From contig JAUCBJ010008084.1 of assembly GCA_032718475.1 (NCBI GenBank), positions 7,586 to 71,585 on the forward strand: a stretch of 64,000 nucleotides of DNA, read 5' to 3'. Each line of letters starts with the position of its first letter. The first letter of the stretch is position 1. Made by a program: the position numbers and the translations under genes. The notes under the pieces are model-generated. The model was not told where the DNA came from, did not search any database, and worked only from the letters and a program-made list of their open reading frames with translations. The stretch is from Nemertoderma westbladi (lineage: Eukaryota; Animalia; Xenacoelomorpha). Shown in pieces: positions 3,001-32,396 of this stretch.

Positions 3001-3840
3001 CACTCATTCATCAACGCTCTGCGTCGGTTCGTGGCAAGCAATGGGACATGTCGTCACATGTATTCCGATAATGGCACAAACTTTGTGGGAGGAGAAAGAG
3101 AACTTAGAGAGGCGATCGAGGGATGGTTTACCGATAACACCGCATCCCAAGTCTGGAAGGAACACTAGATACAGTGGCACTTCCAGACCCCCTTAGCACC
3201 CCATACGAGCGGGGTATGGGAGAAACTGATCGACCTAGTAAAACGATCCATGCGCGTCGCTCTAGGAGACACCCGGGTATCCCATGACACCCTCCGCACA
3301 ACATTCTGCGAGATCACGGCTACCCTGAACAACCGACCCATTGTCCCTATCCGCGACGACCCCACAGAAATGGAGCCCCTTACTCCTAATCACCTACTAG
3401 GGAGACCTAAAACTCATGTTCTCCCGGAGACAATGTTTCCGGATCCCAACGATATCGCGAGACATACAAACTGGAAGAAGTCCCAAGCGTTGGCAGCGCA
3501 TTGGTGGAGAATCTGGGCCCAGGAGTACCTCATAACCCTCCAGACCAGGAGGAAGTGGAACCACACCTACAGGAATGTCGAAGTTGGCGACATGGTACTA
3601 GTAAAAGAAGACCTTAAAGACCGCGTCCACTGGCCTGTGGCGCGAGTCGTGGCAATACAACCGAGCAAAGACGGACTTGCGAGGACTGTGACGATACGAA
3701 CGGCAAAGGGCCACTTCCAACGCCCTATCCAGAAGCTGTGCCTTCTTGAAGGCAATGACAGCGGTGACTCTACGAGAGGTGATAAAATCCCTACTCCGGA
3801 TCCTGCTGCGGACATTGGTGACAATGATAAATGCGTTTAA
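1..3840 (+). pseudogene. pol: BEL/Pao pol (RT, Pao RNase H, integrase) with two in-frame stops
   Basis: One frame from position 1: LLIGLD...MGWTLCG, YLPIHYV, RVVNDAA, DIKAMFHQV, FYVDDG, FSDAS, PRLEL, WVDS, NPADLSSRG, HHAG/CFTC, GVDCFGP, SDNGTNFVG, GVWE, LNNRP, LTPNHLL, RPIQKLCLL. In-frame TGA at 160-162 and TAG at 3166-3168; ORFs 205..3168 and 3250..3840 share this frame. Confidence 0.93.
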
Positions 3841-4132
3841 ACCCTTCTCATCCTGTTGACAAACTCTTTTAAACTATGATTTATCGACAATGAAAATGGA
3901 CCCCCCTTAAACCAACTGTAACCACGCAATGGTATTTGTGTTTCCTCGTGTGTTATGTGGAGTCCAGCGTCACCCTGCAGATGTTTCGACTGACGCAGGG
4001 TCGTTTATGTATTGTTTACCCTGATTTTGGTCATCGGGACCGACGATATTGGATTATTGGAAATGGAAAAGATTTGAAGTGGAATTCATTGTATTCATCG
4101 CAGTATGTTATGTTGTCCGTTGCGTGCGCAGT

Positions 4133-4536: not shown

Positions 4537-5193
4537 CACAACAAAGATTTCCCAAAGAAGATGATTGAATGTAGTTGGAAATGATGAAAAGAATCAGACA
4601 ACCTTACTATAAACCGAATGATGACGCGTATGATGATGAAAATGTAATGATGCGCACCCTGGTGCTGCGCTTATAACAAATGATGATAGCCGGGGGGCTA
4701 TAACCCCAATGATGATGTGGAAATGTGGAAATAAATGAAATGTGAAATAAATGGTGGAAATAAATGTGTTGAAATATGTTGAAATAAATGAAATGAGATG
4801 AAATAATAATGAGAAATGAAAAAAGACAAAAAAAAGGTATAAAAAAGTCTAAAGAAAAGAATTGGAAAAAAGAAAAGGACATACTGGTTGGATATTAATG
4901 TATAGCTATAGTAACTGTAAATGCTGAATGTATTAGCAATAAGATGATAGATGCCTATATAGCAATGTTATTAATAAACTGAACTAAAAATAAAACTGAA
5001 TTATTCTGCAATCACTATAGTTTCAGACTTTCTGGACTTATAATTAACTGATCTAATTTGTAACGGATATAATCGTAAATATGGACCCAAATATATTATT
5101 GGCGAATTACGTAACACGATAGATCTACTGGAATATTCGCAACCCGGATCCCCTGACTTTGATACAAATTGGAGTACCCTGCTAAATGAGAAC

Positions 5194-7677
5194 GTGCGAG
5201 TCGTTAAATTCACCGGGCGAGAGGGACCGGATTCCAAGAATCTACGAGCCCTCCGGTTAGCCGATGCTAGTACGAGACTGAAAAGAACTCGGAACGCAAA
5301 GGCAACCGGAGGGGACGATTCGTCGTATTGGGAAACGTTCTGGCAAAGCGTCTACAGATCCCGATGTTTGATCTACGACAACGAGGGAAACGCGACGCCC
5401 ACCTCGAAAGCGATTACGTTGGCGAGATGTCAAAGTTTCGTCGACGACAAGAGTACGTACCTCGCCCACTGGGGAAACCTGTCGGAGTGTACGGCGACAC
5501 TTCGAGAGGAACGTATATCGACCATCCAGAATCGCGACGACTACCAAGAAAAGTATGGGGCGAAAGAATATGGTCGATCCTTGGTCGTCGTCCTCGGAAC
5601 CCTGGACGGTTTGGTATTGGTGTGTCGAATATTTCCGACACCCAGACAGGAAGTGCAGGCAGCCGGAGCGATCTGGTTGCTACCTCCGGAAATCCAAAAG
5701 ATCCTCTTCGACTTCGACGTCATTAAAATCGGGTTGGATATAAAGGCGGACGTCCGGAACGACTACGCGAACGCTCCTTCAGGAAGAAACCGACGAGACG
5801 ACCTCAACGCCCTTAGCCATTGCATCGACACTCAAACGCTACTAGCCTGGTTACGATTCGCCGAGTTCATGCGAGGATTCCAAGAGGTGAGACCGACGAA
5901 ATCCGGGATCGGCTACCTCGCTGTGCTAAACGGCGGCATCGACTTCAAACCCCAGAAATTCCGGGATTATAATAAAATATATGGTGGATACCCGGGATTA
6001 GAAATAAAGAGCGAGCGAGAGGGTCGATGGAAGGACGTTGACCGGAAGTGGACGATACACCAAAGGTGGGAGAATCCCGATCGACGGAACTATATCTACG
6101 TCGTTATGGAGTGCTACACCGTCGCTAAGTTTATCTGTAAAACTCTCGATAACCTCATTACGGCGGTTCCTCTTTCCTTCGTCGACTACGACTGGAACGA
6201 GGTTATAAACCACGCATTCAAAGCGGTTGAGAACATCACACCGGGAAAAACGAAAACGCTCGCCGTTATCGATTCCTGGGATGAGAGCGGACCTTACGAT
6301 ATCCCTACGATTACCGATCTTCTCGGTGCGGAGGAGCCTCTGATTTCTTCGGAAGGGGAAGAAATATGGCTACATGAGGGTGTTCTACTCTCCACCCCGA
6401 AGCGACAACTCGAGCCGGAGGCCGCTTACCAACCGGCAGCCAAACGGGTTGCCTCCACCGAACCAATGACGGAAGCGGGCGTTTCCTCACCACTCGGCTT
6501 CGGTAGCCCTGCGAGGGAGTTGGTTACTACCTTCGCGTTAAACGACTTCGGCGATACATGCCAAAGGTTATCCCCGTATCCTTTCCCGGGTGGCGAAGAC
6601 TGGTCGTCGGAGATTCCGAGTACCAGCAATCAACGGACCCGCTCAGCGATATTGGTCGAGAAGGGCCCCAGCGCTGCGCCGACTCCCGACGATCTCCTCG
6701 GAATCCCTCCGTCGAAAACCCCGGCACCTCTTCGCCGACCAGCGGTGGCTACTACACCCTCCGTTCCTCAGGATCCTATGCGACCAACCCGTTGGTACGC
6801 CGAGCAAACTGAATGGATCCACCGCCAGAAACGGTCGTCCGAGTTGAGACCGACGGGACACAAAGAAGGTTATCATAGCGAGGACCTACTACGCAAAAGC
6901 CCAGCCTTCCGCGGGCTACCGACCACCGCGAATATTCAGAAGAGCGACCGGCGACTCGAGTATTACGTCGGCGTCCCGATCCCGATATTTCCCGGTCGAG
7001 AGATGCAGTTGGAGGTGTGCGGCGACTGTGGTTCGGAGCAGTGCCCACGCGGTAGAAGGAATCGGGTTACCGATTCATGCCTCCAGCTCCTCGGGATACT
7101 TTATTGCCCTTACTGCGCGACATCGGGCCACGACGTTTCCATCTGTCCGATCCTATATAACCTCTGCACCACGTGCGGTTTCCGTGGACATTCCGCTAGC
7201 CCCCGCTGCTATATCAACTGTCCTACCAAAGACGTTACCGCTATGGGAAATATGGTCATGTTTGAAACATACGCAAACAGCCACATAAAGACCAAGGTTC
7301 AGAGAAACGCTCGGAATATCGCGCAGGAGATGGCGTGCGGGTACTTCTTCTTCCCGGAACACCTCCACACGTCGGCCACGCTACCTTTCCATTACGTGGA
7401 TCTGTTGCTGAGCGCCGGATTATTCAGCCCATTCGAAGTCATTAGACGCTTATACTCGTATAAAGAGGAGCTCGGTGACGGAGAGTGGTTCCTCGAGGCT
7501 CGCAACTCCGAGTTGGAACGACGAACCGATATGATCCCGTTGCCATCGAAAGGAAGAGCCGCCAGGAGACAAGCCGAAGCGTTGCTCACGATGGACGTTG
7601 ACGCTCCTCTACCAGCTATAGCGATCGACGAGAGCCGACGGGCGAAGAGGCGAAAGACGTATCAGAGAAAGAAATAG
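5194..7677 (+). CDS. Accessory ORF: putative DEDD 3'-5' exonuclease (WRN/EXD2/Mut-7-like), Pro-rich linker and zinc-knuckle cluster
   Basis: Uninterrupted 827 aa; the frame is open from 5044 with no early ATG. Motifs LIYDNEG (ExoI DxE), LPPEIQKIL...KIGLDIKAD (ExoII), IDTQ, SGIGYLA, W...YVVME (ExoIII-like); CGDC...C, CPYCATSGHDVSIC, CTTCGFRGH...C. Confidence 0.8.
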   Translation: MRVVKFTGREGPDSKNLRALRLADASTRLKRTRNAKATGGDDSSYWETFWQSVYRSRCLIYDNEGNATPTSKAITLARCQSFVDDKSTYLAHWGNLSECTATLREERISTIQNRDDYQEKYGAKEYGRSLVVVLGTLDGLVLVCRIFPTPRQEVQAAGAIWLLPPEIQKILFDFDVIKIGLDIKADVRNDYANAPSGRNRRDDLNALSHCIDTQTLLAWLRFAEFMRGFQEVRPTKSGIGYLAVLNGGIDFKPQKFRDYNKIYGGYPGLEIKSEREGRWKDVDRKWTIHQRWENPDRRNYIYVVMECYTVAKFICKTLDNLITAVPLSFVDYDWNEVINHAFKAVENITPGKTKTLAVIDSWDESGPYDIPTITDLLGAEEPLISSEGEEIWLHEGVLLSTPKRQLEPEAAYQPAAKRVASTEPMTEAGVSSPLGFGSPARELVTTFALNDFGDTCQRLSPYPFPGGEDWSSEIPSTSNQRTRSAILVEKGPSAAPTPDDLLGIPPSKTPAPLRRPAVATTPSVPQDPMRPTRWYAEQTEWIHRQKRSSELRPTGHKEGYHSEDLLRKSPAFRGLPTTANIQKSDRRLEYYVGVPIPIFPGREMQLEVCGDCGSEQCPRGRRNRVTDSCLQLLGILYCPYCATSGHDVSICPILYNLCTTCGFRGHSASPRCYINCPTKDVTAMGNMVMFETYANSHIKTKVQRNARNIAQEMACGYFFFPEHLHTSATLPFHYVDLLLSAGLFSPFEVIRRLYSYKEELGDGEWFLEARNSELERRTDMIPLPSKGRAARRQAEALLTMDVDAPLPAIAIDESRRAKRRKTYQRKK

Positions 7678-7850: not shown

Positions 7851-8259
7851 CTGTTCGCGGTATTTCAACTTTTCATAACGCGAGTTGAATATTTTTTGTA
7901 TTTATTAAAAACGATTATTCCGATATCACTACTGGGTGCGGGACCATGGGTTTTGGGCACATTCTATAAACTGGGGGCGATTTATGGGCGAACTTTGGGG
8001 CGACTTACAGGGAACGGGACTAATTTCATGTTTATAAGGGCCAGGGGGGATGGAAAATTCAAGCAGTATTCAGGTTAGCCTGATTACTATTAGGCCCTGG
8101 CCAACTTCCTGCTGCCTGTAGAGGTGGATTTGGTAACGTGCCAGGCCTAAAGGACAAGGACTGCTCTTAGCAGTCCCTGGCCAACAGCAGTTATTACGAG
8201 CCTGAAAAGGACATCGGAACGCCAGCTGCTTGCGTCAGGGATTTGCGACGGGAAACGAC

Positions 8260-9268
8260 AGCCCCCTTAGCCAAGCCGTGTACTGGTTCTCGATGACCGA
8301 TCCCTTCGGGGTTCGCGAGGGGTGGGACGGACACGCGAAAGGGCGGCCGACTTACAGAGGAAGGGTTTGACAAGGACTGCCCTTAGCGGTCTCTGGTCAA
8401 CAGCAGTTATTACGAGCCTGAAAAGGACATCGGAACGCCGGCTGCTTGTACCAGGGATTTGCGACGGGAACTGACGACAGACCCCTTAGCCAAGCCGTAC
8501 TGGTTCTCGATGATCGTTCCCTTCGGGGTTCGTGAGGGGTGGGACGGACACGCGACGGGGTCGAAAGACAAAGGACTGGACTCTACTGGCCTACCGACTG
8601 TTCGGAGCAGTTTCTCGGCTGCCGAAGCGACTACGAGCCTGAAAGGGACTCGGAAAGCCTAGGTGGTTGGGTTTCTGCGATGAACCGACGGACCCCTAGC
8701 CAAGCCGTACTGGTTCTCGATGATCGAGCCCTTCGGGGTTCGGGAGGGGTGGGACGGACACGCGAACGGGTCCACCGACACGACAGACTCCTAGCCAAGC
8801 CGTACTGGTTCTCGATGACCGATCCCTTCGGGGTTCGAGAGGGGTGGTACGGATACGCGACAGAGTCTACCGACTGGACCGACCCTTAGCCAAGCCGTGC
8901 TGGTTCTCGATGATCGTTCCCTTCGGGGTTCGTGAGGGGTGGGATGGACACGCGACGGGGTCGAAAGACAAAGGACTGGACTCTACTGGCCTACCGACTG
9001 TTCGGAGCAGTTTCTCGGCTGCCGAAGCGACTACGAGCCTTAAAGGGACTCGGAAAGCCTAGGTGGTTGGGTTTCTGCGATGAACCGACGGACCCCTAGC
9101 CAAGCCGTACTGGTTCTCGATGATCGAGCCCTTCGGGGTTCGGGAGGGGTGGGACGGACACGCGAACGGGTCCACCGACACGACAGACTCCTAGCCAAGC
9201 CGTACTGGTTCTCGATGATCGATCCCTTTGGGGTTCGGGAGGGGTGGAACGGACACGCGACAGGGTCG
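8260..9268 (+). repeat. Seven copies of an ~80-nt structured hairpin module inside the LTR, including a 400-bp tandem duplication (8481-8880 / 8881-9270)
   Basis: TAGCCAAGCCGTACTGGTTCTCGATGAN5CCCTTCGGGGTTCGNGAGGGGTGGGACGGACACGCGA, with GATGA at 8292, 8509, 8719, 8814, 8909, 9119 and 9214. Confidence 0.9.
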
Positions 9269-9453
9269 ACCGACACCGACACTACGGCATCAAGACTAGG
9301 ACCGAGGGAAAATCTGGGGAACATTAGTTAGGCTAAAATCTGAGCGAACAGTGGGTAATTAAATAATATACTGTAGGGATTTATATTGTCGTGTATAATT
9401 ATTGTGAATATTTGGTGTATATTGATTTGGGGAAGCCCAAAATTACTCTCAAT

Positions 9454-9501
9454 CAGGATTGTAACAGGATTGTAACAGGATTGTAACAGGATTGTAACAG
9501 G
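9454..9501 (+). repeat. 11-bp minisatellite (CAGGATTGTAA), about 4 copies
   Basis: Direct tandem repeat read from the sequence. Confidence 0.9.
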
Positions 9502-9681
9502 GTTAACTACATTAAAGAATATATCCAACCAATGCAGCTTTTTCTCAACCGCAATCCTGCATCTAAGAAATTTCTCCTTCTCCACAATCAATATCCGGTG
9601 ACTGGCCGGGACTCCGTGGTCTGTAAAGCCCCGCCTCCAGCATCGGCGTTTTTCCCCCCTGGTGTTGGGATAACGGCAACA

Positions 9682-18462: not shown

Positions 18463-18971
18463 TGTTAGCTTATTCAATTCCGCTAACACAAACCCATAAA
18501 GTAAGCCGTTAAGCAATATTGGGGGCCACGAGGTTGATTACCCAATCTCGTGCCACCCCAATAAAATGGGAAGGAGAAACACACAATAAGGGTCAGGGGC
18601 CACACCCCTGACCGAGAGAGAATAGCAGGAGTGAGGGAAACACTCCAAAGGGCGCCAACAGGGATATCAGCCAATGGGAGGGAGGCACCGGCTAGGTACA
18701 GTAACAAGGCCAACCCGTGCAATATAACCAGTTAACGGTAATCAGTTATTTCAGTTATCTCATTGTGTTGGTCGGTTTAGTTAGGTTAGGACCGGAACTT
18801 TAATTACCGTTGCGTAACCACTGTGCAGACACCCTATTCTATATCTATACTATTATACCGGAGGACTTTATACAGCAATCAACAATATCCACCTTTTACA
18901 CACACACGGCGGGAACGCGACGCGTAAATCAAAAACCGGATAAACCGGGATCCTTTGTGGATCCCGTCACA
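18463..18971 (+). repeat. 5' LTR of element 2
   Basis: TGTTAGC...GTCACA; near-identical to 31888-32396 (three substitutions seen by eye). Confidence 0.97.
18721..18757 (+). promoter_or_regulatory. Candidate LTR core promoter (TATA-like AATATAA followed by Inr-like TCAGTT)
   Basis: AATATAA at 18721-18727 and TCAGTT at 18751-18756, about 30 nt apart. Motif match only. Confidence 0.4.
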
Positions 18972-19039
18972 GTAATTAAAGACCAACCTAGTAATTAAAT
19001 CCTAGAACTCCAGCCAGCTACCGACACTCTACCTATGAG

Positions 19040-22000
19040 ATGAGCGACGTTACGCCAACGCGGACCCCGGAGGAAGACCCAACGATTCGGGAGGCCGTGA
19101 CCAGACGGTATAGGCCCACGACGCCGGACCCATCGGTAACGGGTCATCCGGCAGATCAGGATGGAGGGGACCGTCTGGAACCAGAGATCGAGCCGAGAGG
19201 AGCGGGAGCCGAGTTGGGAGAAGGAGAGGGCGAGAGGGACGGAGAAGAAGATGAGTCGACACGGAACTAGGGTCGACGTACCGATGTCGCCGGCCAGCCA
19301 CAGGCCGTGGGCGACGAACGGCCCACCGAAACGGCGACGGTGGGGCCGACGGTACGACGCCGGACCCGGAGAGATGGGGGAGATGTCGGTACCGATGTTG
19401 CCGGCCAGCTACAGGCCGAGGGCGACGGACGGCCCACCGGAACGGCGACGGTGGGGCCACCGGTACGACGTCGGACCCGGAGAGACGGAGGAGAGGTCGG
19501 CGACGAGGACGTCGGGGTTTCTGATCGACTTCGACGGGCCTACAACGCGACCCGGAAGCTACTTAAGGAGGCCAAGGAGGGGGCGAAGATAGATGAGGTA
19601 AAGCTGACAACAGGACTAGGTGAGTTGGATAGACATTTTAATTATCTAATGCGCTTCGGGCAGAGAGAACTGGCCAAGGAGAGAGCGAGAGGGGTTGCAG
19701 AGGAACTGTGTGATTTATGGCGGTGTAGGGGTATGCAACCTAGTGCAGTGTATGTAGGGCCATACTTAGTCGATGCCCAGGGTATAAAATCAGTGGGTTG
19801 GAGGAGACATGAGGAGGGCGAATCCGAGGTTGACCGCGAGGATTCGATCTCGTCGATCGGAGGAAGTTCTGGGAAGAGGGGGAAAGTTAGTAGGTCGGGA
19901 AGGCGGAGGGAATCCGTCGTAACCGATAAGTCTGCTACATCCTCCGTAAAAGAAAGACGGGTGAGAGAGATAAATGCCACGTACCATCTCGACCTGATTG
20001 CGCAAGGTCAGAGAGAGTTATGTAGATGGTTAGAGGAGGGGAGAATGCAACTAGAGAAGGAAATGGTACTGATTAGAGAAACCGGAGAGAGGGCCGAAAG
20101 GGCCGCGAAAAGCCTTAGAGAGTGTGAGGAAATAGAGAGGAGGGAACAAGAGGAGCGTGAGGCGAGACGGGAAAGTGAACGCAAAGAGCGTGAGGCGGAA
20201 CGCAAGGAGCGTGAGACGAGAGAGAACAATGAACGCAAGGAACGCGAGGCGAGAGAGGAAAATGAACGCAAGGAACATGAGGCGAGGGAGGAAAGTGAGC
20301 GCAAAGAGCGTGAGGCGAGGCGAAGGGAGGGAGCTAGGAGAGAGGCGGAATTGGCCGAACAGAACGCACGGGAGAGTCGGGAGAGAATGGCAAGAGAGGT
20401 GCGTGAGCGAAAAGAATTGGAAAGACAGCAAGGCGAGCTTATAGAGTACAAAACTAGACGTATGCGCGAACTGGAACTAGCGTGGATGGGGGCGTCTGAG
20501 AGCGGGGCTGACTCGAAGATTTTCGAGGAGCCAAGGGCCGTGGATATGTTTATTAATACCCCATTTACAGGGACCGCACGACAGACCCGAAATTGGTGTG
20601 ACCGTACGGGCCGGGGGGGTAATAATAATACTACAGTAGACGACGTTAATATTAATGGTACCGTATTGGATAATCCTAACCAAGCATATATTGCAGGAAA
20701 TACTTTGCCTGGTAGTAGTGATTTGAATTTAAACACAAATAATCTAAATAATAATTTCAATTTAAACGTGCAAAATAATCCGAATAATAATTTAAATTTA
20801 GAAAATAATGATAACTCAAATAATTTAAATAATGATCCAAGCCCGAATTTACAAAATAATTCAAATAATGTAGTCGCGCAAAATAATCAAAATGATTCTA
20901 TTTCGAACGAACAAAATAATTCCGTTTCTAACACAGGTGCTATTAATGCGAACGCGTCGGACGTGTATAACCCGACAGACGCCGGCCTGGTAGGCCACGT
21001 AGTTAGTAGGCAGGAGGTGGCGGGGTTGAGTCGACCCGACGGCGGCCTAGTAGGCCACGTAGTTAGTAGGCAGGAGGTGGCGGGGTTGAGTCGAGCCGAC
21101 GGCGGCCTGGTAGGCCACGTAGTTAGTAGGCAGGGGGTGGCGGGGTTGAGCCAACCCGGAGTAGGCCCGATAGGCCAAGTAGTGGTGGAGAGAGAGGCGG
21201 GGGTAAGCGAACCCAGCCGCAGTAGAAATATTGTGTCGACTGGAGAGGGGTGTAGAAGAGAAGTTAGTGGCAAGTGGGGGGGGGGGGCTACAGGAGCCCC
21301 GCAACGAGAAGTTAGCGACGAGTGGGGGGGGGCTACAGGAGCCCCACAACGAGAAGTTGGTGGCGAGGGGGGGGGCAGAGAATGTCCCACAGGCGTCGGC
21401 GGATAATGCGCGGGCCGAATCAGGTAAACCGCAACACCCGGCGACGGAGAGTAATAGGGGGATTGCGAGTATCCCCAGCGGCGTGCGATCGAGCAGAGAG
21501 AGGCAGGTTGATGTCGCGAGAGGGCGGACGAAGCGTCGAGCCCGATCAGAAGAGGGAAGAAGAACAGTGGAGTTTAACCGGGAGGTCGACGAGAGATCTC
21601 ATGAGCGGGAATACTGCACTGAAAGGAGAAGTAGTAGAAGAAGTATCGCCGCGAATGACAGGAGAGCGAGGACGGATAGCGAGCCGTCGGTAGTTGAGAT
21701 GGAAAGAGAGAGTCGGTGGGGTCGAACCTCGGGAGATTGCCGTCGTCCCGGAGAGACGCAACCTGACGAGACGCGTTACGCGTCGAGAGAGGGGTACACG
21801 ATGTACCAGCACGAAGACGAGAGTAGTAGAGGGGGTCGAAGAGAAACTTTCCGACGGGATATACCTACAGATCGAGAGTACGGTAGCCGCGGGGAGGATT
21901 GTTCGAGAAGAATAAACTTCGATCCCGAGCAACACATACAGACTGTAGGACATACTGTAGGCCTTACTGCACATACCATAGGCCATGCTGACAGGAATAA

Positions 22001-22280
22001 TATAGGCGATAGGATAGCGCGGACAATGGAATTAAACCCGGATGTCGCGGAGTACATACCGGCAGGTAGGCCAGAAGTTGATAGGCCTATACCGGTACCA
22101 GTACAGCAGTATGACTACAGCATGCAAGGACATAACATATACCCAGGGGAGGGGGGAATTATTGCGGATAGATGCATGGGCCCCAATATATTAACATCAA
22201 CCCCAGTACCAAACATACCGGTGGGGGGGGGGGACAGGGTGACATTCCCCCATCGCAATATCAACAATATACCCCGATAG
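19040..22280 (+). pseudogene. gag: Long low-complexity N-terminal extension of gag, interrupted
   Basis: ATG at 19040; in-frame TAG at 19268-19270 then ORF 19307..21406 in the same frame. Overlapping ORFs 21231..22280 and 22172..27571 join across poly-G runs (about 21276-21375 and 22223-22233). Contains an E/R coiled-coil, an Asn-rich tract, and ~117-, 60- and ~40-bp internal repeats. Confidence 0.65.
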
Positions 22281-25200
22281 GAGCAAGAACAACGAGACCC
22301 TTGGATGGAAATAGGTCATGTGACACAGAAATATGGAGGGGACTGCTACCCCCAATGATATACCCAAGCCAAAGAAAGGCAGAAAATAGGTCGGGTGGAC
22401 CACACCCAACAGGAGAAACTATACAACATCCATCGAATCCATTGGAAGCGCAGGCGATGGGGATGGCCATGTTGATCGATGCATTAAAAACAAGGATCGA
22501 ATTACCACCCGTGGAACCATTAAAATTCGATGGGAGTAGGCCGGAAGAATATCTCCAGTTTCGGCGTATGTATAGTAACGAAATACTAACAAAGAACTTG
22601 ACGCAAGCGGAGTGCCTAAAGTATCTGCAAGTATACACAGGAAGCCCAGCATACGACATCGTGAGGCAATATCAGGGCATAGAGGGCGGCTTCACGACGG
22701 CATGGTGGGCACTGGACAGGGAATACGGGCACCCGGCCAAGATCATCAGGCAGACCCTGAGAGGCATAACATCGGGTGGCCTACAGGATAACCCCGTTAG
22801 CATTAAGACATTCGCGAACAAGGTCGAGAAGGAGCTAATCGTGTTAAAGACGCTAGACGCGCCATACGAACTCAACGCGTCCAACAACATCACCACGATA
22901 GCGCAGGCACTACCGATGTGGTTGCGCAACAAGTGGAGGAAAATCGCTTTCTCCACTCGAGATAGGAAGGGTGCGGAACCGGGTTTAGAAGAAATGTCAA
23001 GCTTCTTAAACTACGAAGCTGAACTAATAACCGACCCAGTCTATAGCGAAGATAGCCTGGGAAAGGGATCGAAGACAGATTACCATAGACCGAAACCAGA
23101 GCACAATACGTCAAATGCATTACCGAAGCTCAGGCAATCACTGCCATATGCAGCGACGCAGGGGACTGCAAGTCCACAGGTAGCCGAAGGAAAGACCACA
23201 CCATGGAACGGACAGGGGAACAATAACAATACGAATAAATATAATCCCAGTACGTCCAGTAGGCCGAACCCAAACAATAAGAATAGTAGGGACTTTGGTA
23301 CAAACGCAGCTGCGATACGCAATGCACTGTATAAGGACGGCTACGACCCAAAGAGCAAATGCCAGCTACATACAAATGCGCTTCATCAAACCATGAACTG
23401 CAGGTACTGGCAAGCGCTACCCAGGGAAGATCAGGTAGAATACGCGGCGAGGAATGAGATCTGCTCGCGATGTGTGATGAGTGGACATAGAGCTAGGCAA
23501 TGCAAGGAGACGCCGGTCAAGTTCGGTCAAAGGAAAGGCCAAACGATGGCAACGAGCACAGTAGGGGCGAGGAAGACAGGAACGGTGCTACTTGGGGTAG
23601 TACCTGTGCGAGTGATTGGAGAAGGCAATCGATCAGTAACAACACTAATGCTGGTCGATAGTGGAGCTGCCTTCACATTAGTCGAGGATTGGGTGGCCGA
23701 AGAAATAGGATTGAGAACGAGGCCAAGTAGAATGGCGGTAACAACCATCTCCAGTAAAGATGAGGTCCTGGAGATGAGAACCGGACGGTGCACCATCGCA
23801 GCAATAGCACCAGGATGCGACTATGGGGCGAGCATCGACCCCATCCAAGTGATAGAGTCAATAAACATCAATGCCAGACGGCCAACCAACATCGAGGTCG
23901 AACAATATACATTTCTGGATGATATCGACTTCTCAATCCCAGAGGTGGACATTAGGAAGGTATCCATCATAGTAGGAATGGACTGCCCAACAGCCCACGA
24001 AAGAATGCAAATGGTCTTCGGCGAAGACAAGCAGTGTGACCCGGTGGCGATACTGACACCATTCGGGTGGACGCTGAGTGGCCCAATCAAGAGCAAGATA
24101 CCATTTAGGATGTCGGAGACATCAGGATGCATGTTCGCGGGAACTATGCAGGAAATGGGTGACGAGAGAGCAGAGGAGCAGCTTAAGAGACTGCTCAGAC
24201 AGGATTTTGAAGGATTAAAGGAGATCGGGGTCGGGACCTCGGTAGAAGACAAGCAGGCTCTACAGAGCGTAGAGGAGTCTATGAGGTGTGATGAGGGGCG
24301 GTATACCATAGGGATGGTATGGAAGCTACCAAAGCTACCGCTACCCGATAATAGAGGGATGGTACTCACGAGGCTTCGTAAGTTGAAGCAGACACTAAAA
24401 CGGAGCCCCGAGAAGAATGAGTACATCCACAGAATGATTAAGAAGTACGTCGAGAAAGGATGGGCCGTGGAGTTACCGGTCGACAAACCAAACACGGATA
24501 GGACGTATTACCTACCACTCCACGTGGCTTTAGATCCGAAGAAAGGTAAACTGCGGATGGTAGTTGACGCATCGGCAAAGACCAACGGAAAATGCTTAAA
24601 CGACTACCTACTAGAAGGTCCGAACATATACAACTCAGGGATAGAGGTCCTACTTAGATTTAGAAATGGGAAACACGCCTCCACGTGTGACATAGAAGGC
24701 ATGTTCAACCAAGTCCGTGTAACGGAGGAAGATAGCGACAGTCAACGCTTCTTATGGTACAACGGTGATGAAGAACCGTCAATAATACCGACGTACAAGA
24801 TGGTAGTACAGAACATGGGAGCCAAGTCGTCTTCATTCACGACGACTATGGCAGTAAGAGATACAGTGAAGGGGAAGGAGGATAGATACAGCACTAGGGC
24901 CGTCGATATGATTCGACGCGGCTTCTACGTAGACGATGGAATGGAGTCTGGAAATACGGTTAAGGAGATACTGGACACAGTGCGCGAGGTTCGCGACATC
25001 CTAAAAGGCTCCGGCTTTAACCTGACCAAATTCCAATCCAGTTCGAAGGAATTTATCAAGGCGATAGGGGACGAGAGACCAGAATCGACTATGGATAATC
25101 CCACAACGTCCAAAGGACAGGACATGGCGAGCAAGAGGACAGAATCTCAACAGAAGGCACTGGGAATCGTGTGGAACAGAGAGACAGATGAACTGGAGTA

Positions 25201-27571
25201 CCAGCTGAGCCAGGAGGGCGCAGACATCCACACAAAGAGAGGCTATGTGTCATACATAGCAAGAATATACGATCCCCTAGGTCTAGCATCCCCACTATTA
25301 GTTACGGGGAAGCAGATACTCAAGAGAGTATACAAACTGAAGGATGAGTGGGACGTAGAGGTACCAGAGGAGATCAAGAAACAGTGGTGTAAGTGGACAG
25401 AAGGCTTGGAGAAGATGGGAACATACAACATGCCGCGAGTGTATTTCCTGGATGGGAACATGACGAATCTGGACTTACACATGTTCTCCGATGCGTCGTT
25501 GGAGGCGTACGGAGCGGCATTCTATTTAATACAACGAGAGGGGGCTCACAAGCCCAGACTGGCCTTTAGCAAAGCTAAGTCAACACCGCCAGATTCAGCA
25601 TCAGTTCCCAAATTAGAATTGACAGCTGCCAGACTAGGAGTTAGGGCCACAGCCTACCTAGTGGATACTATTCCCAACATAGTGGAGACACACTACTGGA
25701 CGGATTCCATGGTAGTGCTTGGTTGGCTACATAACAAAAGGACGAGATACCCTATATTCGTCGCGAATAGGGTGGACAAAATAAGGGCGACCACAGAATT
25801 GGAAAGGTGGCACTACTGCCCGATGGACGAGAACCCAGCGGACTTGTTATCAAGGGGCGTGGCACGCCACACTTTCTTAAAAAAGGAAGGATTGTGGCAA
25901 CACGGGCCGCAGTTTCTGAGCGACAAGGAGGCGTGGCCGCCGATGAGAAAGGTGGACCCGGGCTCAGGAGAGGTAGTGTCAGAAGGAGAAGAGGGAGATT
26001 CAGAGGGAGAAGAGATATACTCCCAGATGGTGAGGGAGATAAGGGACGTGCAACCTAAACCAGAAGAACTGTGCGATAACCCGACGGATAAACTCCTCAG
26101 CTACAGCTCTAGTTGGTATAAGACCAAGAAATTAGTGGCGTACTGGAGAGCCTTCGGGAATTTCCTCGCGGGAGTTGGCAAAGGCAAGAAGATCAGGGCA
26201 ACAATAGATCTGGAAGAAGCGGCCAAAGCAGTAATCCGCTATGAACAACGGAAGAGCTATGGCGACGAGGTGGAACGCGTCGTTAAACAACAGCATCTCA
26301 GACGGGATAGCGAGTTGATCACGCTGTCACCACAACTTAATGACGACGGGATTCTAGTAATGAATTCTAGGGTGGGATACGACAACAGCATAATCGTACC
26401 ACCGAAACCCATCATCATTCCTACAGGATCGCCAATAGTCCACCAGATTATCTGGGACTCCCACAAGTCGATATTGCACGGGGGCACCAACCGAACCCTT
26501 ACGGAGATACGGAGGACCTTGTGGGTCAAGCAGTTGAGGAAGAAGGTAAAAGCAGTAGTGGGGCAGTGCCAGACCTGCCGACGAGCGAAGAAGGAGCGAG
26601 CCATACAAGAGATGGAACCACTACCAGCGAGTAGAGTAAGACAGCACGACCCGCCATTTACACATTGCGGTGTGGACATGTTCGGGCCGATAAAGATCAA
26701 GGTGATGCGGCACACAGAGAAACGCTACGGTATTATCTTCGTATGTAACAACATGCGGGCGGTAGGGATAGAACTCGCCCAAGATGCAACCGCATCAGCA
26801 TTTATTAATGCATTAGAAAGGTTCAGAGACCGCAAAGGTGGGACGATCGCAGTAATGTACTCCGACAGCGGAACCAACTTTGTGGGAGCAGAGAACGAGA
26901 TGGCAGAGGCCTTGGACATCTTGGAAGGGGAGGAAGTCAGGGCAGCCATGAGACGGCGACAAGTAAAGTGGGAGAGAAGGACGCCGTATGTACCACATAC
27001 ACTAGGATGCGTCGAGAGACTGGTGGGCAGTTCGAAGCGTCTCATGACGAAGTTAATGAACACCCACATGGTCACGGAGGACGTCTTGAGAACAGTACTT
27101 GCGAAGTGCGAGGGTATCATTAATAGCAGACCGCTATATCCGGAGAATGATGACCCTGAGTCATTAGATGTGCTGACGCCCAGCCATTTTCTAATGGAAA
27201 GGCCAGCGACCATCGATATGCGGGGTGTAGACCCAGATGACATACACTCCCGCCAGAGTTGGAAGGTCGCTAAAGCGATAAGCGCAGAGTACTGGAGAAG
27301 GTGGGTTGAGGAATACCTACCCACGCTTCACAAAAGAAGCAAGTGGAGGAAGTCGAATAGGGGGTTAAGAGAGGGAGATCTCGTAATCGTTACGGATGAT
27401 ACTATCATCAACAACCAGTGGCGGTTGGCGAGAGTTGTAGGCACTCACTCCGATGAGGATGGAAGAGTCCGATCGGTAGAAGTGCGGATAGGGGGCAAGA
27501 TAGGTGCGAAAGACAGAAAAACCTACAGGAGAGCTGTAGGGAAATGCTGTCTATTAGAAGGGGCACCTTAG
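22172..27571 (+). CDS. gag-pol: BEL/Pao gag-pol polyprotein (capsid-like DUF1759-type region, zinc knuckles, aspartic protease, RT, RNase H, integrase)
   Basis: KFDGSRPEEY; CQLH..H...C and CSRC..GH....C; LVDSGA; YLPLH; RMVVDAS; DIEGMFNQV; FYVDDG; FSDAS; PKLEL; WTDS; NPADLLSRG; HGG..CQTC; GVDMFGP; SDSGTNFVG; INSRPL; LTPSHFL. Open for 1799 aa; the true start is probably upstream. Confidence 0.95.
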   Translation: MHGPQYININPSTKHTGGGGGQGDIPPSQYQQYTPIGARTTRPLDGNRSCDTEIWRGLLPPMIYPSQRKAENRSGGPHPTGETIQHPSNPLEAQAMGMAMLIDALKTRIELPPVEPLKFDGSRPEEYLQFRRMYSNEILTKNLTQAECLKYLQVYTGSPAYDIVRQYQGIEGGFTTAWWALDREYGHPAKIIRQTLRGITSGGLQDNPVSIKTFANKVEKELIVLKTLDAPYELNASNNITTIAQALPMWLRNKWRKIAFSTRDRKGAEPGLEEMSSFLNYEAELITDPVYSEDSLGKGSKTDYHRPKPEHNTSNALPKLRQSLPYAATQGTASPQVAEGKTTPWNGQGNNNNTNKYNPSTSSRPNPNNKNSRDFGTNAAAIRNALYKDGYDPKSKCQLHTNALHQTMNCRYWQALPREDQVEYAARNEICSRCVMSGHRARQCKETPVKFGQRKGQTMATSTVGARKTGTVLLGVVPVRVIGEGNRSVTTLMLVDSGAAFTLVEDWVAEEIGLRTRPSRMAVTTISSKDEVLEMRTGRCTIAAIAPGCDYGASIDPIQVIESININARRPTNIEVEQYTFLDDIDFSIPEVDIRKVSIIVGMDCPTAHERMQMVFGEDKQCDPVAILTPFGWTLSGPIKSKIPFRMSETSGCMFAGTMQEMGDERAEEQLKRLLRQDFEGLKEIGVGTSVEDKQALQSVEESMRCDEGRYTIGMVWKLPKLPLPDNRGMVLTRLRKLKQTLKRSPEKNEYIHRMIKKYVEKGWAVELPVDKPNTDRTYYLPLHVALDPKKGKLRMVVDASAKTNGKCLNDYLLEGPNIYNSGIEVLLRFRNGKHASTCDIEGMFNQVRVTEEDSDSQRFLWYNGDEEPSIIPTYKMVVQNMGAKSSSFTTTMAVRDTVKGKEDRYSTRAVDMIRRGFYVDDGMESGNTVKEILDTVREVRDILKGSGFNLTKFQSSSKEFIKAIGDERPESTMDNPTTSKGQDMASKRTESQQKALGIVWNRETDELEYQLSQEGADIHTKRGYVSYIARIYDPLGLASPLLVTGKQILKRVYKLKDEWDVEVPEEIKKQWCKWTEGLEKMGTYNMPRVYFLDGNMTNLDLHMFSDASLEAYGAAFYLIQREGAHKPRLAFSKAKSTPPDSASVPKLELTAARLGVRATAYLVDTIPNIVETHYWTDSMVVLGWLHNKRTRYPIFVANRVDKIRATTELERWHYCPMDENPADLLSRGVARHTFLKKEGLWQHGPQFLSDKEAWPPMRKVDPGSGEVVSEGEEGDSEGEEIYSQMVREIRDVQPKPEELCDNPTDKLLSYSSSWYKTKKLVAYWRAFGNFLAGVGKGKKIRATIDLEEAAKAVIRYEQRKSYGDEVERVVKQQHLRRDSELITLSPQLNDDGILVMNSRVGYDNSIIVPPKPIIIPTGSPIVHQIIWDSHKSILHGGTNRTLTEIRRTLWVKQLRKKVKAVVGQCQTCRRAKKERAIQEMEPLPASRVRQHDPPFTHCGVDMFGPIKIKVMRHTEKRYGIIFVCNNMRAVGIELAQDATASAFINALERFRDRKGGTIAVMYSDSGTNFVGAENEMAEALDILEGEEVRAAMRRRQVKWERRTPYVPHTLGCVERLVGSSKRLMTKLMNTHMVTEDVLRTVLAKCEGIINSRPLYPENDDPESLDVLTPSHFLMERPATIDMRGVDPDDIHSRQSWKVAKAISAEYWRRWVEEYLPTLHKRSKWRKSNRGLREGDLVIVTDDTIINNQWRLARVVGTHSDEDGRVRSVEVRIGGKIGAKDRKTYRRAVGKCCLLEGAP

Positions 27572-27679
27572 ATCGTTTGTTAGAAGGGAGTTTAGTCGTC
27601 CAAGTTTGGACTGAGGGGGGTGGGATTGAGGGCGAAGCGCCCTTCCCACACATAAAATAAAAATAAAATAAATAAAAAT

Positions 27680-28400
27680 TAGAGTTAGTTAGTTAGTTAG
27701 AACTTACGTAGTACCGGTGGTTAGTAGAGTTGGGAGTTAGTTAGAAGGTACGTAGTACCTAGAGTTAGTTAGTTAGTTAGTTAGGAATTAGCTACAAGGT
27801 ACGTAGTACCTAGAGCTAGTTAGTTAGTTAGGAGTCAATTAGAAGGTACGTAGTACCTAGAGTTAGTTAGTTAGTTAGTTAGGAGGTACGTAGTACCGAG
27901 AGTTAGGAGTCAGTTAGTTAGAGGTGTTAGAGAAGTAGTAAGAGGGTACGTAGTACCGGTGGTTAGTAGAGTTAGAGGTTAGTAAGAGGGTACGTAGTAC
28001 CGGTGGTTAGTAGAGTTAGAGGTTAGTAAGAGGGTACGTAGTACCGGTGGTTAGTAGAGTTAGAGGTTAGTAAGAGGGTACGTAGTACCGGTTAGTAAGA
28101 GTAGAGTTGGAAGTTAGTAAGAGGGTACGTAGTACCGATAGTTAGTGGAGTAGTTAGAGGGTACGTAGTACTGTTAGTTAGAGAGTAGTAAGAGGGTGCG
28201 TAGTACCATTAGTGGAGTTAGAGTAAGAGTTAGAGGGTACGTAGTACCGTTAATTAGGGAGAGAGAGTAAGAGTTAGAGGGTTCGTAGTACCGCTAGTTA
28301 GGGAAAGAGAGTAAGAGTTAGAGGGTACGTAGTACCGCTAGTTAGTTAGAGGTTAGTAAGAGGGTACATAGTACCGATTAGTAAGAGATAGAGGTAGAAG
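27680..28400 (+). repeat. Irregular tandem array with a GGTACGTAGTACC core and (GTTA)n/purine-rich spacers
   Basis: About 16 copies of the GGTAC-GTA-GTACC inverted core, spaced roughly 35-60 bp apart. Confidence 0.9.
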
Positions 28401-28815
28401 GGTATATATAGTATAGATATTAGTCAGTAGTTAGTAGCGAGAGGGGGGCATATGAGTACAGTTGGATAGATCGTGTAGGCCACGCGACATATACTGCTGT
28501 ACTGCACAGGCCCATAGAGTAGGTCAGAATGTGGATTATGGAATAGAATAATCCATAAACAGTAAAGTAGTAGAATTAAGTTAAATCAAAATAAATAGAA
28601 TAAATAGGGCTAAAAAATTACAGATTATGGTAACAGCAGGGAAATTATTCTGGAACATAATTAAAGAAACGGACAGAAATTGTAAATTAGGGTACATTTC
28701 TTAGCTACAGAATTAAGTAATAGAAATTTAGGCTAAAAGGCGTAGTTAGATAGGAAATAGGCCATTCTCGAACTGTACAGACCATCAGAAACTTATCACT
28801 CATCTGTATTGCGCC

Positions 28816-31237
28816 TTGGTAAGGCACCTGGTCGGGACCTACGGGACGCCGTCGCTGGACAACGCGATCTTCCAACACTTCCACTACGTGGTGAAAGGGG
28901 ACGAGGCGAAGTTCGGGATTCCGAAGTACCCGAGGGAGTCGCCGAAGAAGGATTGGAAGAGGTTTATAGAGTCCATCAACAGGGGAGGATATATGATCCT
29001 AGACGACGAGGGAACCGTGGAAGACGAGGAGGGTTCGAGACGAGGATCAGCAGGGTCGGCCAGGACCATACTCCTACATTTGGCCGCGCCAAATGGGGAC
29101 ATTTTCTTATTCGACCTAGGAACGTATGGGAAAAAGGACGGGCCAAAATTAAACCGGTTGCCGAAAGCGGTGCAAGTCCTGGTAAGAGAGAAGTCGACGA
29201 CGAAAGTGGGATCGGCGATTCGCGAGGACGCGGAGAGAATCATCGGTCCGGACGCCACCAACCTTCTGGATATGCAGAAGGTCTTCATGGCTATGACAGC
29301 ACCAGACGGGTTGGGAGTAGTCGGGAACACAGGTCAATGCGGAGCGGTGGCAATGGGCCAGCTATTGGGGCTCGTATGCCACAATCCGATGGACTGGGGG
29401 AAGTTCAGGGAGGATTACGGAGCAGAACTAGCGAACTCGCTAAAGTGGGGAGCGAGACTGGGAAGGCAAGAGGTGTATCAATTCCGCAGAGGAGCAATAA
29501 AGGTATATCAGAAGCGATATATCCTGCAGGAAGATTGGATAATGATAAGTTTGCTCAACTTATTCATGACCGTGGTTATCGAGAGGGAACCAGCGGCATT
29601 TCTGTTATCGGGATCACCCCTAAGCTACAGGAGAGCCTTTAAGACGGCCTTCGACAGTCTGGTAGACCACCCGGGGCTGAAGGGCAAGTCGGTGTACTAC
29701 AACAGCCGACATCTGATAGACGGGTAGATAGATACGCCGTATCAGAGATGGGAGCAGCTAGAGACGGATAGACGAGAGGCAAAGCGACTGGAAGAAGTCG
29801 CGAGACGGGAAAGGATAGAAGCAGAGGAGAGGGAGGAGGAGGCCAGGACGCAGAGTTACGGCTTCGAGGAACAGGCAGGCTTAGACGAACTTCGTTGGAC
29901 TTCATCAGGGACTTCGGGGGAGTCTCTAGGGCGAGAACTGGGATGGACGGTGGGATCGCCGAAACCGTCGACGTTGGGGTTGCAAGCGATGCCCATACCA
30001 GCGGGCGCCGAAGGCGACCAACCGCTAAGGAAGTTAGGGGAGCTAGAGGGATGGAGAGCTACGGGCGAGAGCCAAGGCGGGAAGGGACATAGTGGATCCA
30101 TCGGGATACCGGGGTTGGAGCCACTGCCAGAGGAGGACGAAGACGACGACGAGTTCGGAGAGATGCCGCCCATCGAGAGGATTGGCCACTCGGACACGGA
30201 CTGGGTTGGCGGGAGGGTGGTGACGGCCAGTGGGGCGAGGGCCTTCTGGGATAGACCCGGCAAGCAGGCCTGGGTGCACGAGGAGCCGGCGATGGATTTC
30301 GCGTGGAGCACTATCAGGTTGGGCGAGCAACCAGGGACGGCACCACGGGTAGTATTCGGGGAGACGATGCCCGAGAGGGGCGAGGAGATCGACGTAGACA
30401 GGGACACTAACATGCAGAAGTTCGCCTACCAGCGACTCCACAGACCGCGGAGATCGCTTGGGACGAAAGACGACGTGGGGCGGGAGACATTGGTACTCGG
30501 TTGCGATTACTGTGGGAGACAGACCCACCAGGAAAGGAGCTGTTTGTACCGATTCCAAAAGGGGACCTTTTGTCTCTACTGCCGCGAGTCGAGCCACAGG
30601 ATGGGGGCGTGTCCACGGTTGCATAACCGATGTCCGAAGTGTAACTTTCGGGGACACTATGGACGACGAAGAGAAGTTCAGAACCTTCGAGGAGTGGGCC
30701 GACGTCGGGGCCATGACGCGGCAGCGCATGAAGGCCCAGGAGTTCAAGTGGGGTTTCTTCCTTATCAATCAGGAGGCTCACTTGGAAATTATAAAGCGGA
30801 GGTTACCGTTTACCTATCAAGAGGTAGCAACGGCGGCGTCGTATGCCGGAGTGATAAATACACAAAGGTATTTGGACAGGTGGACGCCACAGAACCGAGG
30901 GGAGTTTAGGGATTTCCTGGCGGAGCACGTGCCGCGGGCAATGAAGATGATCTTATGGGACGCCACCAGGGGGAGACAACAGGGCCACTTGGAGGGGTCA
31001 CCCGCGAAGCGATATCGGGAGCTGATAACACCAGCACCCAAGGAGCCAACGACCGGGATCAGTAAGGGTCCGAAGACAGAAAGCGGATCCCAGAGGAGCG
31101 GTAGTGACCAGGAAACGACCCAGGGAGGAGGACGGCAAAGGGAAAGACTTGAGGTGGTTCCCAAAGTCAGGGGGGATGAACTGAGACTTCAATGTGGTAC
31201 GCCTGGAAGGCGCCACGTGGGACGTACGAACTATTAA
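28816..31237 (+). pseudogene. Accessory ORF homologous to 5194..7677 (DEDD exonuclease and zinc knuckles), disrupted
   Basis: ORFs 28816..29727 and 29950..30909 are in frame across TAG 29725-29727; a frameshift near 30658 leads into ORF 30458..31237. Motifs MILDDEG, LPKAVQVLV...KVGSAIRED, LDMQ, YILQED; CDYC..H....C, CLYCRESSHRMGACP.L...CPKCNFRGH; FEEWAD...TRQR...WGFF. Confidence 0.8.
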
Positions 31238-31878: not shown

Positions 31879-31887
31879 GGGGGGGAG
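31879..31887 (+). other. Polypurine tract of element 2
   Basis: GGGGGGGAG directly 5' of the 3' LTR. Confidence 0.9.
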
Positions 31888-32396
31888 TGTTAGCTTTTTC
31901 AATTCCGCTAACACAAACCCATAAAGTAAGCCGTTAAGCAATATTGGGGGCCACGAGGTTGATTACCCAATCTCGTGCCACCCCAATAAAATGGGAAGGA
32001 GAAACACACAATAAGGGTCAGGGGCCACACCCCTGACCGAGAGAGAATAGCAGGAGTGAGGGAAACACTCCAAAGGGCGCCAACAGGGATATCAGCCAAT
32101 GGGAGGGAGGCACCGGCTAGGTACAGTAACAAGGCCAACCCGTGCAATATAACCAGTTAACGGTAATCAGTTATTTCAGTTATCTCATTGTGTTGGTCGG
32201 TTTAGTTAGGTTAGGACCGGAACTTTAATTACCGTTGCGTAACCACTGTGCAGACACCCTATTCTATATCTATACTATTATACCGGAGGACTTTATACAG
32301 CAATCAACAATATCCACCCTTTACACACACACGGCGGGAACGCGACGCATAAATCAAAAACCGGATAAACCGGGATCCTTTGTGGATCCCGTCACA
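31888..32396 (+). repeat. 3' LTR of element 2
   Basis: 509-bp direct repeat of 18463-18971. Confidence 0.97.

What the first reader, a model, noticed from the sequence alone, without database searches (positions are those of the whole stretch)
28750..31237. A second, highly divergent BEL element carries a homologous exonuclease-knuckle ORF
Seen: element 2 has unrelated LTRs and a clearly diverged pol, yet has the same architecture in the same position. Pairs (element 2 vs element 1): MILDDEG vs LIYDNEG; LPKAVQVLV..KVGSAIRED vs LPPEIQKIL..KIGLDIKAD; CLYC....H....CP.L...C..C.FRGH vs CPYC....H....CP.L...C..C.FRGH; FEEWAD...TRQR...WGFF vs FETYAN...TKVQR...CGYFF. Similarity is confined to motifs, with no evident nucleotide similarity. 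Inference: long-term purifying selection on the cargo within a BEL sub-lineage rather than a one-off capture.
Basis: partly seen in the sequence, partly recalled or inferred. Interest (0 to 1): 0.88.

Follow-up and report, generated by a model that had tools for sequence, protein, structure and literature searches.

The report
Ancient exonuclease gene in BEL/Pao retrotransposons
Two distantly related jumping genes in this window, and dozens of relatives in other datasets, carry the same extra gene, whose family tree matches that of their copying enzyme and whose product is predicted to be an RNA-trimming nuclease joined to zinc knuckles that likely helps the element blunt host RNA silencing.

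Summary
Confirmed and extended. Element 2 is a young BEL/Pao retrotransposon (18463-32396; LTRs differ at 3 sites). Between pol and the 3' LTR it carries a third ORF homologous to that of element 1, although their pol proteins are only 32% identical. A profile built without either ORF scores element 2's N-terminal piece at 43 bits (best of 2000 shuffles: 5). That domain is predicted to fold as a DEDD 3'-5' exonuclease (EXD2, Nibbler, RNase D type), followed by three CCHC knuckles and a conserved unnamed module. The stop and the frameshift are private to this copy. A knuckle motif scan gave 120 or more metagenome loci; of 35 with enough upstream DNA, 32 have BEL pol directly upstream and 28 also have the nuclease domain. 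RT and cargo trees of 24 elements agree, with no strong conflict, and dN/dS is 0.03-0.36. One clade keeps the domain without its catalytic residues; another lacks it. DEDDy cargo is known from rotifer Juno/Vesta elements; my searches found no report for BEL/Pao. Function, expression, hosts and the position among cargo-free BEL lineages are untested.

The parts
18463..18971 (+). 5' LTR of element 2 (TG...CA, 509 bp); 5-bp target duplication at 18458-18462 and 32397-32401
   Evidence: 3 differences between the LTRs
18972..18981 (+). site after the 5' LTR: no TGG start as in a tRNA primer site; 10 bases complementary to LTR 18798-18807
   Evidence: 11 of 20000 shuffled LTRs hold it
19271..22280 (+). 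two overlapping upstream frames (711 and 357 aa), charged and repeat-rich, no Pfam family above cut-off
22172..27571 (+). intact BEL/Pao gag-pol frame, 1799 aa: DUF1759, aspartic protease, RT, Peptidase_A17, integrase zinc domain, DUF5641
27572..28749 (+). non-coding spacer with tandem repeats; 12 copies of an 11-base motif at 27748-28335
28750..29724 (+). accessory ORF, piece 1: DEDD-fold exonuclease-like domain (about 28936-29640); putative site D 29002-29004, E 29008-29010, D 29227-29229, Y 29518-29520, E 29530-29532
29725..29727 (+). in-frame stop, private to this copy
   Evidence: all laid depth (37, 15 and 21 contigs in X1, X2, X3) differs from the window at its first base; X5 has no cover there
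29728..30501 (+). accessory ORF, charged low-complexity linker
   Evidence: 4 of 10 listed differences at third positions
30502..30660 (+). three CCHC-type zinc knuckles, the third cut by the frameshift
   Evidence: (44.0 bits)
30659..30670 (+). frameshift; other copies hold about 20 more bases here
   Evidence: one bridging record with 20 gap letters, loose ends at 30659-30665 in all four runs
30662..30829 (+). conserved post-knuckle module (FE.wA..G..T..R...GFF...LPF.Y), no Pfam family
   Evidence: (25.6 bits)
30830..31237 (+). variable tail of the accessory ORF and its stop
31879..31887 (+). polypurine tract
31888..32396 (+). 3' LTR of element 2
163..3840 (+). pol of element 1, with a stop at 3166-3168 in the integrase
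5044..7677 (+). homologous accessory ORF of element 1, uninterrupted, 877 aa; ExoI D-N-E followed by a loop insertion
7852..9681 (+). inferred 3' LTR of element 1 (purine tract, then TG...CA), with internal repeats
   Evidence: 5' copy outside the window

Best explanation
This is an old accessory third gene of a group of BEL/Pao retrotransposons, whose tree matches that of pol and which is under purifying selection; its product is predicted to be a DEDD-fold 3'-5' exonuclease domain plus three zinc knuckles that likely grips single-stranded RNA, likely trims 3' ends where the active site is kept, and likely serves to blunt host RNA silencing or decay of the element. Shown: homology, position, co-descent, selection, and that the two breaks belong to this copy alone. 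Predicted: the fold. Inferred: a single capture from an EXD2-like host nuclease; knuckles feeding RNA to the nuclease as in trypanosome RNase D; RNA binding as the conserved core, since one clade keeps the domain without catalytic residues; counter-silencing as the purpose. My odds by step: old co-inherited gene 0.9; knuckle-guided RNA binding with trimming in the active clades 0.7; counter-silencing as the purpose about 0.45.
For: Profile from five outside homologues scores element 2 at 43.4 bits and element 1 at 46.0, best of 2000 shuffles 5.0. Family profile hits the EXD2 exonuclease at E 2.9e-14, next Egalitarian 0.0012 and WRN 0.034. Model pLDDT 79.9, pTM 0.81; VIA Z 13.4, rmsd 3.6 over 197 residues to Nibbler; Foldseek top rows RNase D and EXD2. 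Knuckle profile is nearest to HIV nucleocapsid and Lin28 (E 0.0015-0.002). 32 of 35 loci with at least 4 kb upstream have BEL pol on the same strand, 31 the nuclease domain, 28 both. Of 14 strong RT splits, 12 recur in the nuclease tree and 13 in the knuckle tree; 0 strong conflicts; Mantel rho 0.85 and 0.87, 0 of 5000 permutations; the three missing splits are not rejected (p-AU 0.26-0.49). dN/dS medians 0.13 (intact), 0.25 (site lost), 0.17 (DEE.D) for the nuclease domain. In trypanosome RNase D the CCHC domain raises RNA binding and cleavage (PMC7797062, section 13). No membrane segment in element 2's protein.
Against: No activity, substrate or expression data. Element 2 has Y-x3-E, not Y-x3-D, at ExoIII. 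19 of 51 locus domains lack the ExoI pair, and three pol-linked relatives (L041, L050, L069) have no detectable nuclease domain, so trimming is not universal. Strict co-inheritance fits a factor acting on its own element better than a shared suppressor. piRNA 3' ends are usually 2'-O-methylated and resist trimming (recalled). Deep branches in the cargo trees have support of only 82-94 and long branches meet, among them element 1 with element 2. 19 of the 24 tree rows come from one series of accession prefixes. No in-frame ATG precedes the domain within either window ORF.
Confidence: 0.5

Rival explanations
1. Same gene, but a helper in the replication cycle: it trims the element's own RNA, primer or cDNA ends, or proofreads for RT as ExoN does for nidoviruses.
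For: Strict co-descent with RT; nucleocapsid-like knuckles; DEDDy enzymes include polymerase proofreading domains (ranks 2, 10, 17); element 2 is 13.9 kb, above the 4.2-10 kb given for the family (PMC8742986); 3'-end processing was proposed for the rotifer ORFs (PMC5408684).
Against: A clade without the active site persists, with contigs that close at 9.2-10.3 kb. Carriers include elements with a TGG-type primer site (L018, L074) and element 2 without one, so no single priming step needs it. Described BEL/Pao elements have only gag, pol and sometimes env.
Confidence: 0.25
2. A non-catalytic RNA adaptor, like Egalitarian: the nuclease fold and knuckles bind the element's RNA for transport, packaging or translation control, and catalysis is incidental.
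For: The site-lost clade stays under purifying selection (dN/dS 0.03-0.32, 9 pairs). Egalitarian is the second sequence hit and its putative catalytic residues are dispensable for RNA binding and function (PMC13186709). Both window elements have repeat arrays just upstream of the ORF that could be binding sites.
Against: 17 of 51 locus domains, from several RT clades, keep D-E-D-D, which suggests selection on catalysis; their dN/dS is lower (median 0.13). Most relatives have little or no spacer before the ORF.
Confidence: 0.2
3. Independent or recent captures of host genes, or look-alike motifs, carried along without function.
For: The direct pairwise match of the two nuclease domains is weak. 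DEDDy ORFs were gained at least twice in rotifer elements. This copy is broken twice.
Against: Congruent trees, shared post-knuckle module, dN/dS far below 1, third-position bias, breaks private to this copy.
Confidence: 0.05

Closest known systems
DEDDy ORF3 of bdelloid Juno and Vesta LTR retrotransposons and Terminons (PMC5408684; passages read)
   Same: A DEDDy-type exonuclease gene downstream of pol in an LTR retrotransposon, no membrane segment, function untested.
   Different: Those hosts are the rotifer Juno and Vesta clades with dUTPase, the motif is DEED, gains are described as repeated and shared between element classes, and no triple knuckle module is mentioned in the passages read. 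Here the carrier is BEL/Pao and the gene tracks RT. Sequence kinship to the rotifer ORFs was not tested.
BEL/Pao retrotransposons, family Belpaoviridae (PMC8742986, whole text; PMC3118150, passages)
   Same: LTRs, gag-pol with DUF1759, Peptidase_A17 and DUF5641, domain order PR-RT-RH-IN, purine tract.
   Different: The only third gene named there is env-like. Element 2 is 13.9 kb, has a nuclease-knuckle third gene, and shows no tRNA-type primer site.
Trypanosoma brucei RNase D, TbRND (PMC7797062; abstract and section 13)
   Same: DEDD exonuclease domain followed by CCHC zinc fingers; top Foldseek rows and top Atlas cluster for homologue P0001 (score 0.86, a lead only).
   Different: A cellular enzyme with four fingers; here three knuckles after a linker of about 260 aa, then a module absent from Pfam. 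Shared architecture may be convergent.
EXD2, Nibbler/MUT-7, WRN, EXD1, Egalitarian exonuclease domains
   Same: Fold and ExoI/ExoII motifs; EXD2 is by far the best sequence match of the family profile.
   Different: 9-18% identity in structure alignments; ExoIII Asp is Glu in both window elements; an insertion lies before ExoIII; no tree with these proteins could be built.
DEDDy domain of some Dada DNA transposons (PMC3706591; passages)
   Same: Mobile-element-borne DEDDy domain.
   Different: Inserted within a DNA transposase, not a separate retroelement gene.

Membership tests
BEL/Pao (Belpaoviridae) | LTR pair with TG...CA ends and target duplication | tested here: met
BEL/Pao (Belpaoviridae) | gag-pol with Pao-specific domains in the order PR-RT-RH-IN | tested here: met
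   DUF1759, Peptidase_A17 E 2e-39, Integrase_H2C2, DUF5641 E 1.5e-24
BEL/Pao (Belpaoviridae) | RT placed among reference BEL, Pao, Tas, Suzu, Sinbad, Dan, Flow lineages | not testable with these tools
   no reference RT sequences were obtainable (searches found none)
BEL/Pao (Belpaoviridae) | typical trait, not used here to delimit the family: tRNA-complementary primer site | tested here: inconclusive
   no TGG start after the 5' LTR and a 10-base match to the LTR instead; host tRNAs were not available to compare
canonical DEDDy exonuclease | DnaQ-like fold | tested here: met
   (predicted model)
canonical DEDDy exonuclease | ExoI D-x-E and ExoII D | tested here: met
   for both window elements
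canonical DEDDy exonuclease | ExoIII Y-x3-D | tested here: not met
   Y-x3-E in both window elements; 12 of 51 locus domains have the full canonical set. Filed as DEDDy-like only.
canonical DEDDy exonuclease | metal-dependent 3'-5' activity | not testable with these tools
   needs an assay
bdelloid DEDDy ORF3 (Juno/Vesta) | DEDDy-type ORF downstream of pol | tested here: met
bdelloid DEDDy ORF3 (Juno/Vesta) | carrier of the Juno or Vesta clade with dUTPase; DEED motif | tested here: not met
   BEL/Pao pol, no dUTPase hit; D-E-D-E in element 2
bdelloid DEDDy ORF3 (Juno/Vesta) | common origin with the rotifer ORFs | not testable with these tools
   their sequences were not obtained
TbRND-type zinc-finger RNase D | exonuclease domain followed by CCHC fingers | tested here: met
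TbRND-type zinc-finger RNase D | four fingers in a compact cellular protein of about 300-380 aa | tested here: not met
   three knuckles, long linker, about 830-880 aa, retroelement-borne
env-like third gene | membrane anchor and fusion-protein homology | tested here: not met
   highest 19-residue hydropathy 1.44 in element 2; the 2.08 peak in element 1 aligns to a strand of the nuclease core; no Pfam hit

The most novel reading that the evidence does not exclude
A deep branch of Belpaoviridae, with members as far apart as the named superfamilies, has kept one captured EXD2-like nuclease fused to zinc knuckles as a counter-defence enzyme against host small RNAs, and some clades have turned it into a catalytically dead decoy: a retrotransposon-encoded suppressor of RNA silencing with a testable enzyme activity.
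Probability: 0.3. Interest if true: 0.85.

Novelty: new variant of a known kind. Interest (0 to 1): 0.63.

Why it matters
BEL/Pao elements are described as gag-pol with an occasional env. A conserved enzymatic third gene that Pfam misses, and that has followed RT across 25-35% identity, adds a new gene class to the family. It comes with natural controls (active, site-lost and domain-lost clades), so the open question of what exonuclease cargo does for a retroelement becomes directly testable.

Tried and rejected
Pfam found nothing in the window ORF pieces and passed its cut-off for 1 of 20 locus domains. Word-based search with element 1's ORF found nothing. Single-sequence PDB searches found no nuclease. 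A single-sequence fold failed (pLDDT 32). No genome is held for the window, so genomic copies could not be counted or treed. No RNA holder listed. No carriers or BEL outgroups in viral contigs. No Rfam match in 3800-33000; no tRNA in the window. Programmed read-through or frameshifting was rejected because other copies lack both breaks. A link between the nuclease and self-priming was considered and dropped, as L018 and L074 have TGG-type primer sites. The spacer repeat as a hairpin array is unsupported: z -2.7 but an unpaired centroid. Earlier scan notes held nothing on this ORF.

Full report
What is in the window. Two BEL/Pao retrotransposons adjoin an 84-bp satellite (arrays at 9682-18467 and 32397-40167). 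Element 2 spans 18463-32396, has 509-bp LTRs with 3 differences and a 5-bp target duplication, and an intact 1799-aa gag-pol frame with DUF1759, protease, RT, Peptidase_A17, integrase zinc domain and DUF5641. Element 1 runs off the left end; its pol has a stop at 3166-3168 and its third ORF (5044-7677, 877 aa) is uninterrupted. The two pol proteins are 31.9% identical over 1219 columns; the third ORFs and the LTRs share no DNA similarity (best E 0.81 and 0.39).

Homology. Pairwise BLASTP gives E 2e-9 for the knuckle piece, 0.004 for the piece after the frameshift and only 0.026 for the N-terminal piece. A phmmer search of 1.84 billion proteins with element 1's ORF returned 7 proteins at E up to 0.001, none with an informative name. 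Profiles built from these alone, searched against the four window pieces and 270 decoy frames, score element 2's N-terminal piece at 43.4 bits (element 1: 46.0; decoys at most 1.4; best of 2000 shuffles 5.0), its knuckles at 44.0 and its post-knuckle piece at 25.6. These homologues were found with element 1, so element 2's scores are the independent ones. The knuckle profile also scores element 2's own gag knuckles weakly (12.9 bits). With Cys and His masked the C-terminal modules still beat 500 of 500 shuffles, narrowly.

The breaks. Contigs of four public DNA runs (at most three samples) were laid on the region. At the first base of the stop all laid depth differs from the window in the three runs that cover it (37, 15 and 21 contigs). 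At the frameshift one bridging record holds 20 more letters and all four runs have loose ends at 30659-30665. Both breaks are therefore lesions of this copy. Of the 40 best-supported differences shown (482 more were not shown), 19 fall in the N-terminal piece and 16 of these at third codon positions (binomial p 7e-6); in the linker 4 of 10.

The N-terminal domain. A profile of 53 domains hits the EXD2 exonuclease at E 2.9e-14, then Egalitarian (0.0012) and WRN (0.034), with WD40 chance rows between them. AlphaFold2 on element 2's domain with this alignment gives pLDDT 79.9 and pTM 0.81. Foldseek lists RNase D, EXD2, NrnC, Egalitarian and Nibbler; VIA gives Z 13.4, rmsd 3.6 over 197 residues to Nibbler, with DEDD nucleases filling the top rows. 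Element 2 has D-x-E, D and Y-x3-E; element 1 has the same set, with a loop insertion after ExoI. The last Asp is thus Glu, as in P0001 and P0004, so I call the domain DEDDy-like. The knuckle profile is nearest to HIV nucleocapsid and Lin28 at weak E-values. The module after the knuckles matched nothing in Pfam or the PDB.

The family. Of the 80, 79 score with the knuckle profile, 55 with the nuclease profile and 43 have BEL pol upstream on the same strand; among the 35 with at least 4 kb upstream the counts are 35, 31 and 32, and 28 have both. The three long loci without a pol hit are L004, L010 and L017; L017 has a gag-like frame upstream. The sample was chosen by the knuckle motif, so it cannot show carriers without knuckles or how common the gene is. 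Among 51 locus domains, 17 keep D-E-D-D (12 with Tyr, 5 with His at the Tyr position), 4 read D-E-E-D, 5 have other partial changes, 6 are incomplete and 19 lack the ExoI pair. The site-lost members in the RT tree form one clade (support 100). L041, L050 and L069, another RT clade, have knuckles but no detectable nuclease domain.

Co-descent and selection. For the 24 elements with RT, nuclease and knuckle regions (4 of 28 with RT were left out for lack of a full nuclease match), 12 of 14 strong RT splits recur in the nuclease tree and 13 of 14 in the knuckle tree, no strong splits conflict, shuffled labels share at most 2-3 splits against 13 and 15 observed, and path lengths correlate (rho 0.85, 0.87). 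The three missing splits are not rejected. Elements 1 and 2 are sisters in the RT tree (99) and, with weaker support, in the nuclease (86) and knuckle (39) trees; both are long branches. RT identities among 404 pairs run from 24.6 to 86.6%, median 36.9; de la Chaux and Wagner give 26.5-39.1% between superfamilies on a different measure (PMC3118150, passages). dN/dS for pairs of at least 60% protein identity with finite dS is 0.10-0.18 for intact nuclease domains (8 pairs), 0.03-0.32 for site-lost ones (9), 0.12-0.30 for D-E-E-D ones (6) and 0.03-0.36 for knuckle regions (29); pairs are not independent and the identity filter favours low values. No cargo-free BEL element was available, so monophyly of the carriers is untested.

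Mechanism. The layout matches trypanosome RNase D, where CCHC fingers raise RNA binding and cleavage (PMC7797062, abstract and section 13). I infer knuckle-guided RNA binding with 3' trimming in the active clades. The site-lost clade under continued selection shows that binding alone is enough there, as for Egalitarian (PMC13186709, passages). For the purpose I favour counter-silencing: the gene is dispensable for BEL replication in general, evolves faster than RT (path between elements 1 and 2: RT 2.78, nuclease 4.11), and its fold relatives Nibbler, MUT-7 and EXD1 act in small-RNA pathways (recalled, except the mention in PMC5408684). A replication helper or a transport adaptor remain live rivals. 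Nothing here shows activity, substrate or expression. Neither window ORF has an in-frame ATG before the domain (first Met of element 2's piece at 28993), whereas most relatives do; a spliced message is possible and untested.

Known or new. DEDDy third ORFs are known from rotifer Juno and Vesta elements and Terminons (PMC5408684, abstract and 12 passages; PMC6431247 and PMC6338049, passages) and a DEDDy domain from some Dada transposons (PMC3706591, passages). The ICTV profile names only an env-like third gene for Belpaoviridae (PMC8742986, whole text). Searches for an exonuclease gene in BEL/Pao elements (listings only, apart from the papers named) found no report; PMC8220671 has no mention of an exonuclease and PMC7968707 covers viral ExoN only in the passages seen. 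Repbase, GyDB, subscription journals and supplements were not searched, and a Repbase entry could already note the domain. Verdict: a real feature and a new variant of a known kind. The host animals are not known from these data.

Noticed in passing
window 18972-18987 and 18798-18807: Element 2 has no TGG-type primer site; the first 10 bases after the 5' LTR pair perfectly with an inner LTR segment (11 of 20000 shuffles), and the next bases could pair with a segment about 25 bases further upstream. It fits the self-priming BEL/Pao pattern noted elsewhere in this scan.
   Followed up: partly
window 9682-18467, 32397-40167: 84-bp satellite of about 105 and 93 copies; element 2 is inserted inside it and element 1 ends at its edge, at a different phase of the unit.
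   Followed up: no
window 7852-9681: Element 1's inferred LTR is about 1.8 kb, with nested 95-bp and 400-bp repeats rich in short stems; no Rfam match.
   Followed up: partly
window 27705-28335 and 4113-4540: Repeat arrays in the spacer between pol and the third ORF in both elements: 12 copies of an 11-base motif in element 2, 3 copies of a longer unit in element 1; unrelated in sequence.
   Followed up: partly
window 28627-28753: A 25-codon frame with ATG, in frame with the accessory ORF but separated by an AT-rich stretch with stops; could be a short first exon and intron.
   Followed up: no
window 19271-22280: About 3 kb of charged, repeat-rich open frames upstream of gag in element 2, without a Pfam family.
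   Followed up: no
L004:431-5206 (match strand), L044, L045: A subgroup with long extra frames between pol and the nuclease-knuckle region (pol seen in L044 only).
   Followed up: no
P0002: Homologue with two tandem copies of the knuckle plus post-knuckle module.
   Followed up: no
L009, L066, L067, L072, L078: His in place of the ExoIII Tyr with all four acidic residues kept.
   Followed up: no
window 41394-64000: AT-rich region with 52-bp and 163-bp tandem repeats, inverted repeats and a short LINE-like RT fragment near 51070-51300 (family recalled, not tested).
   Followed up: no
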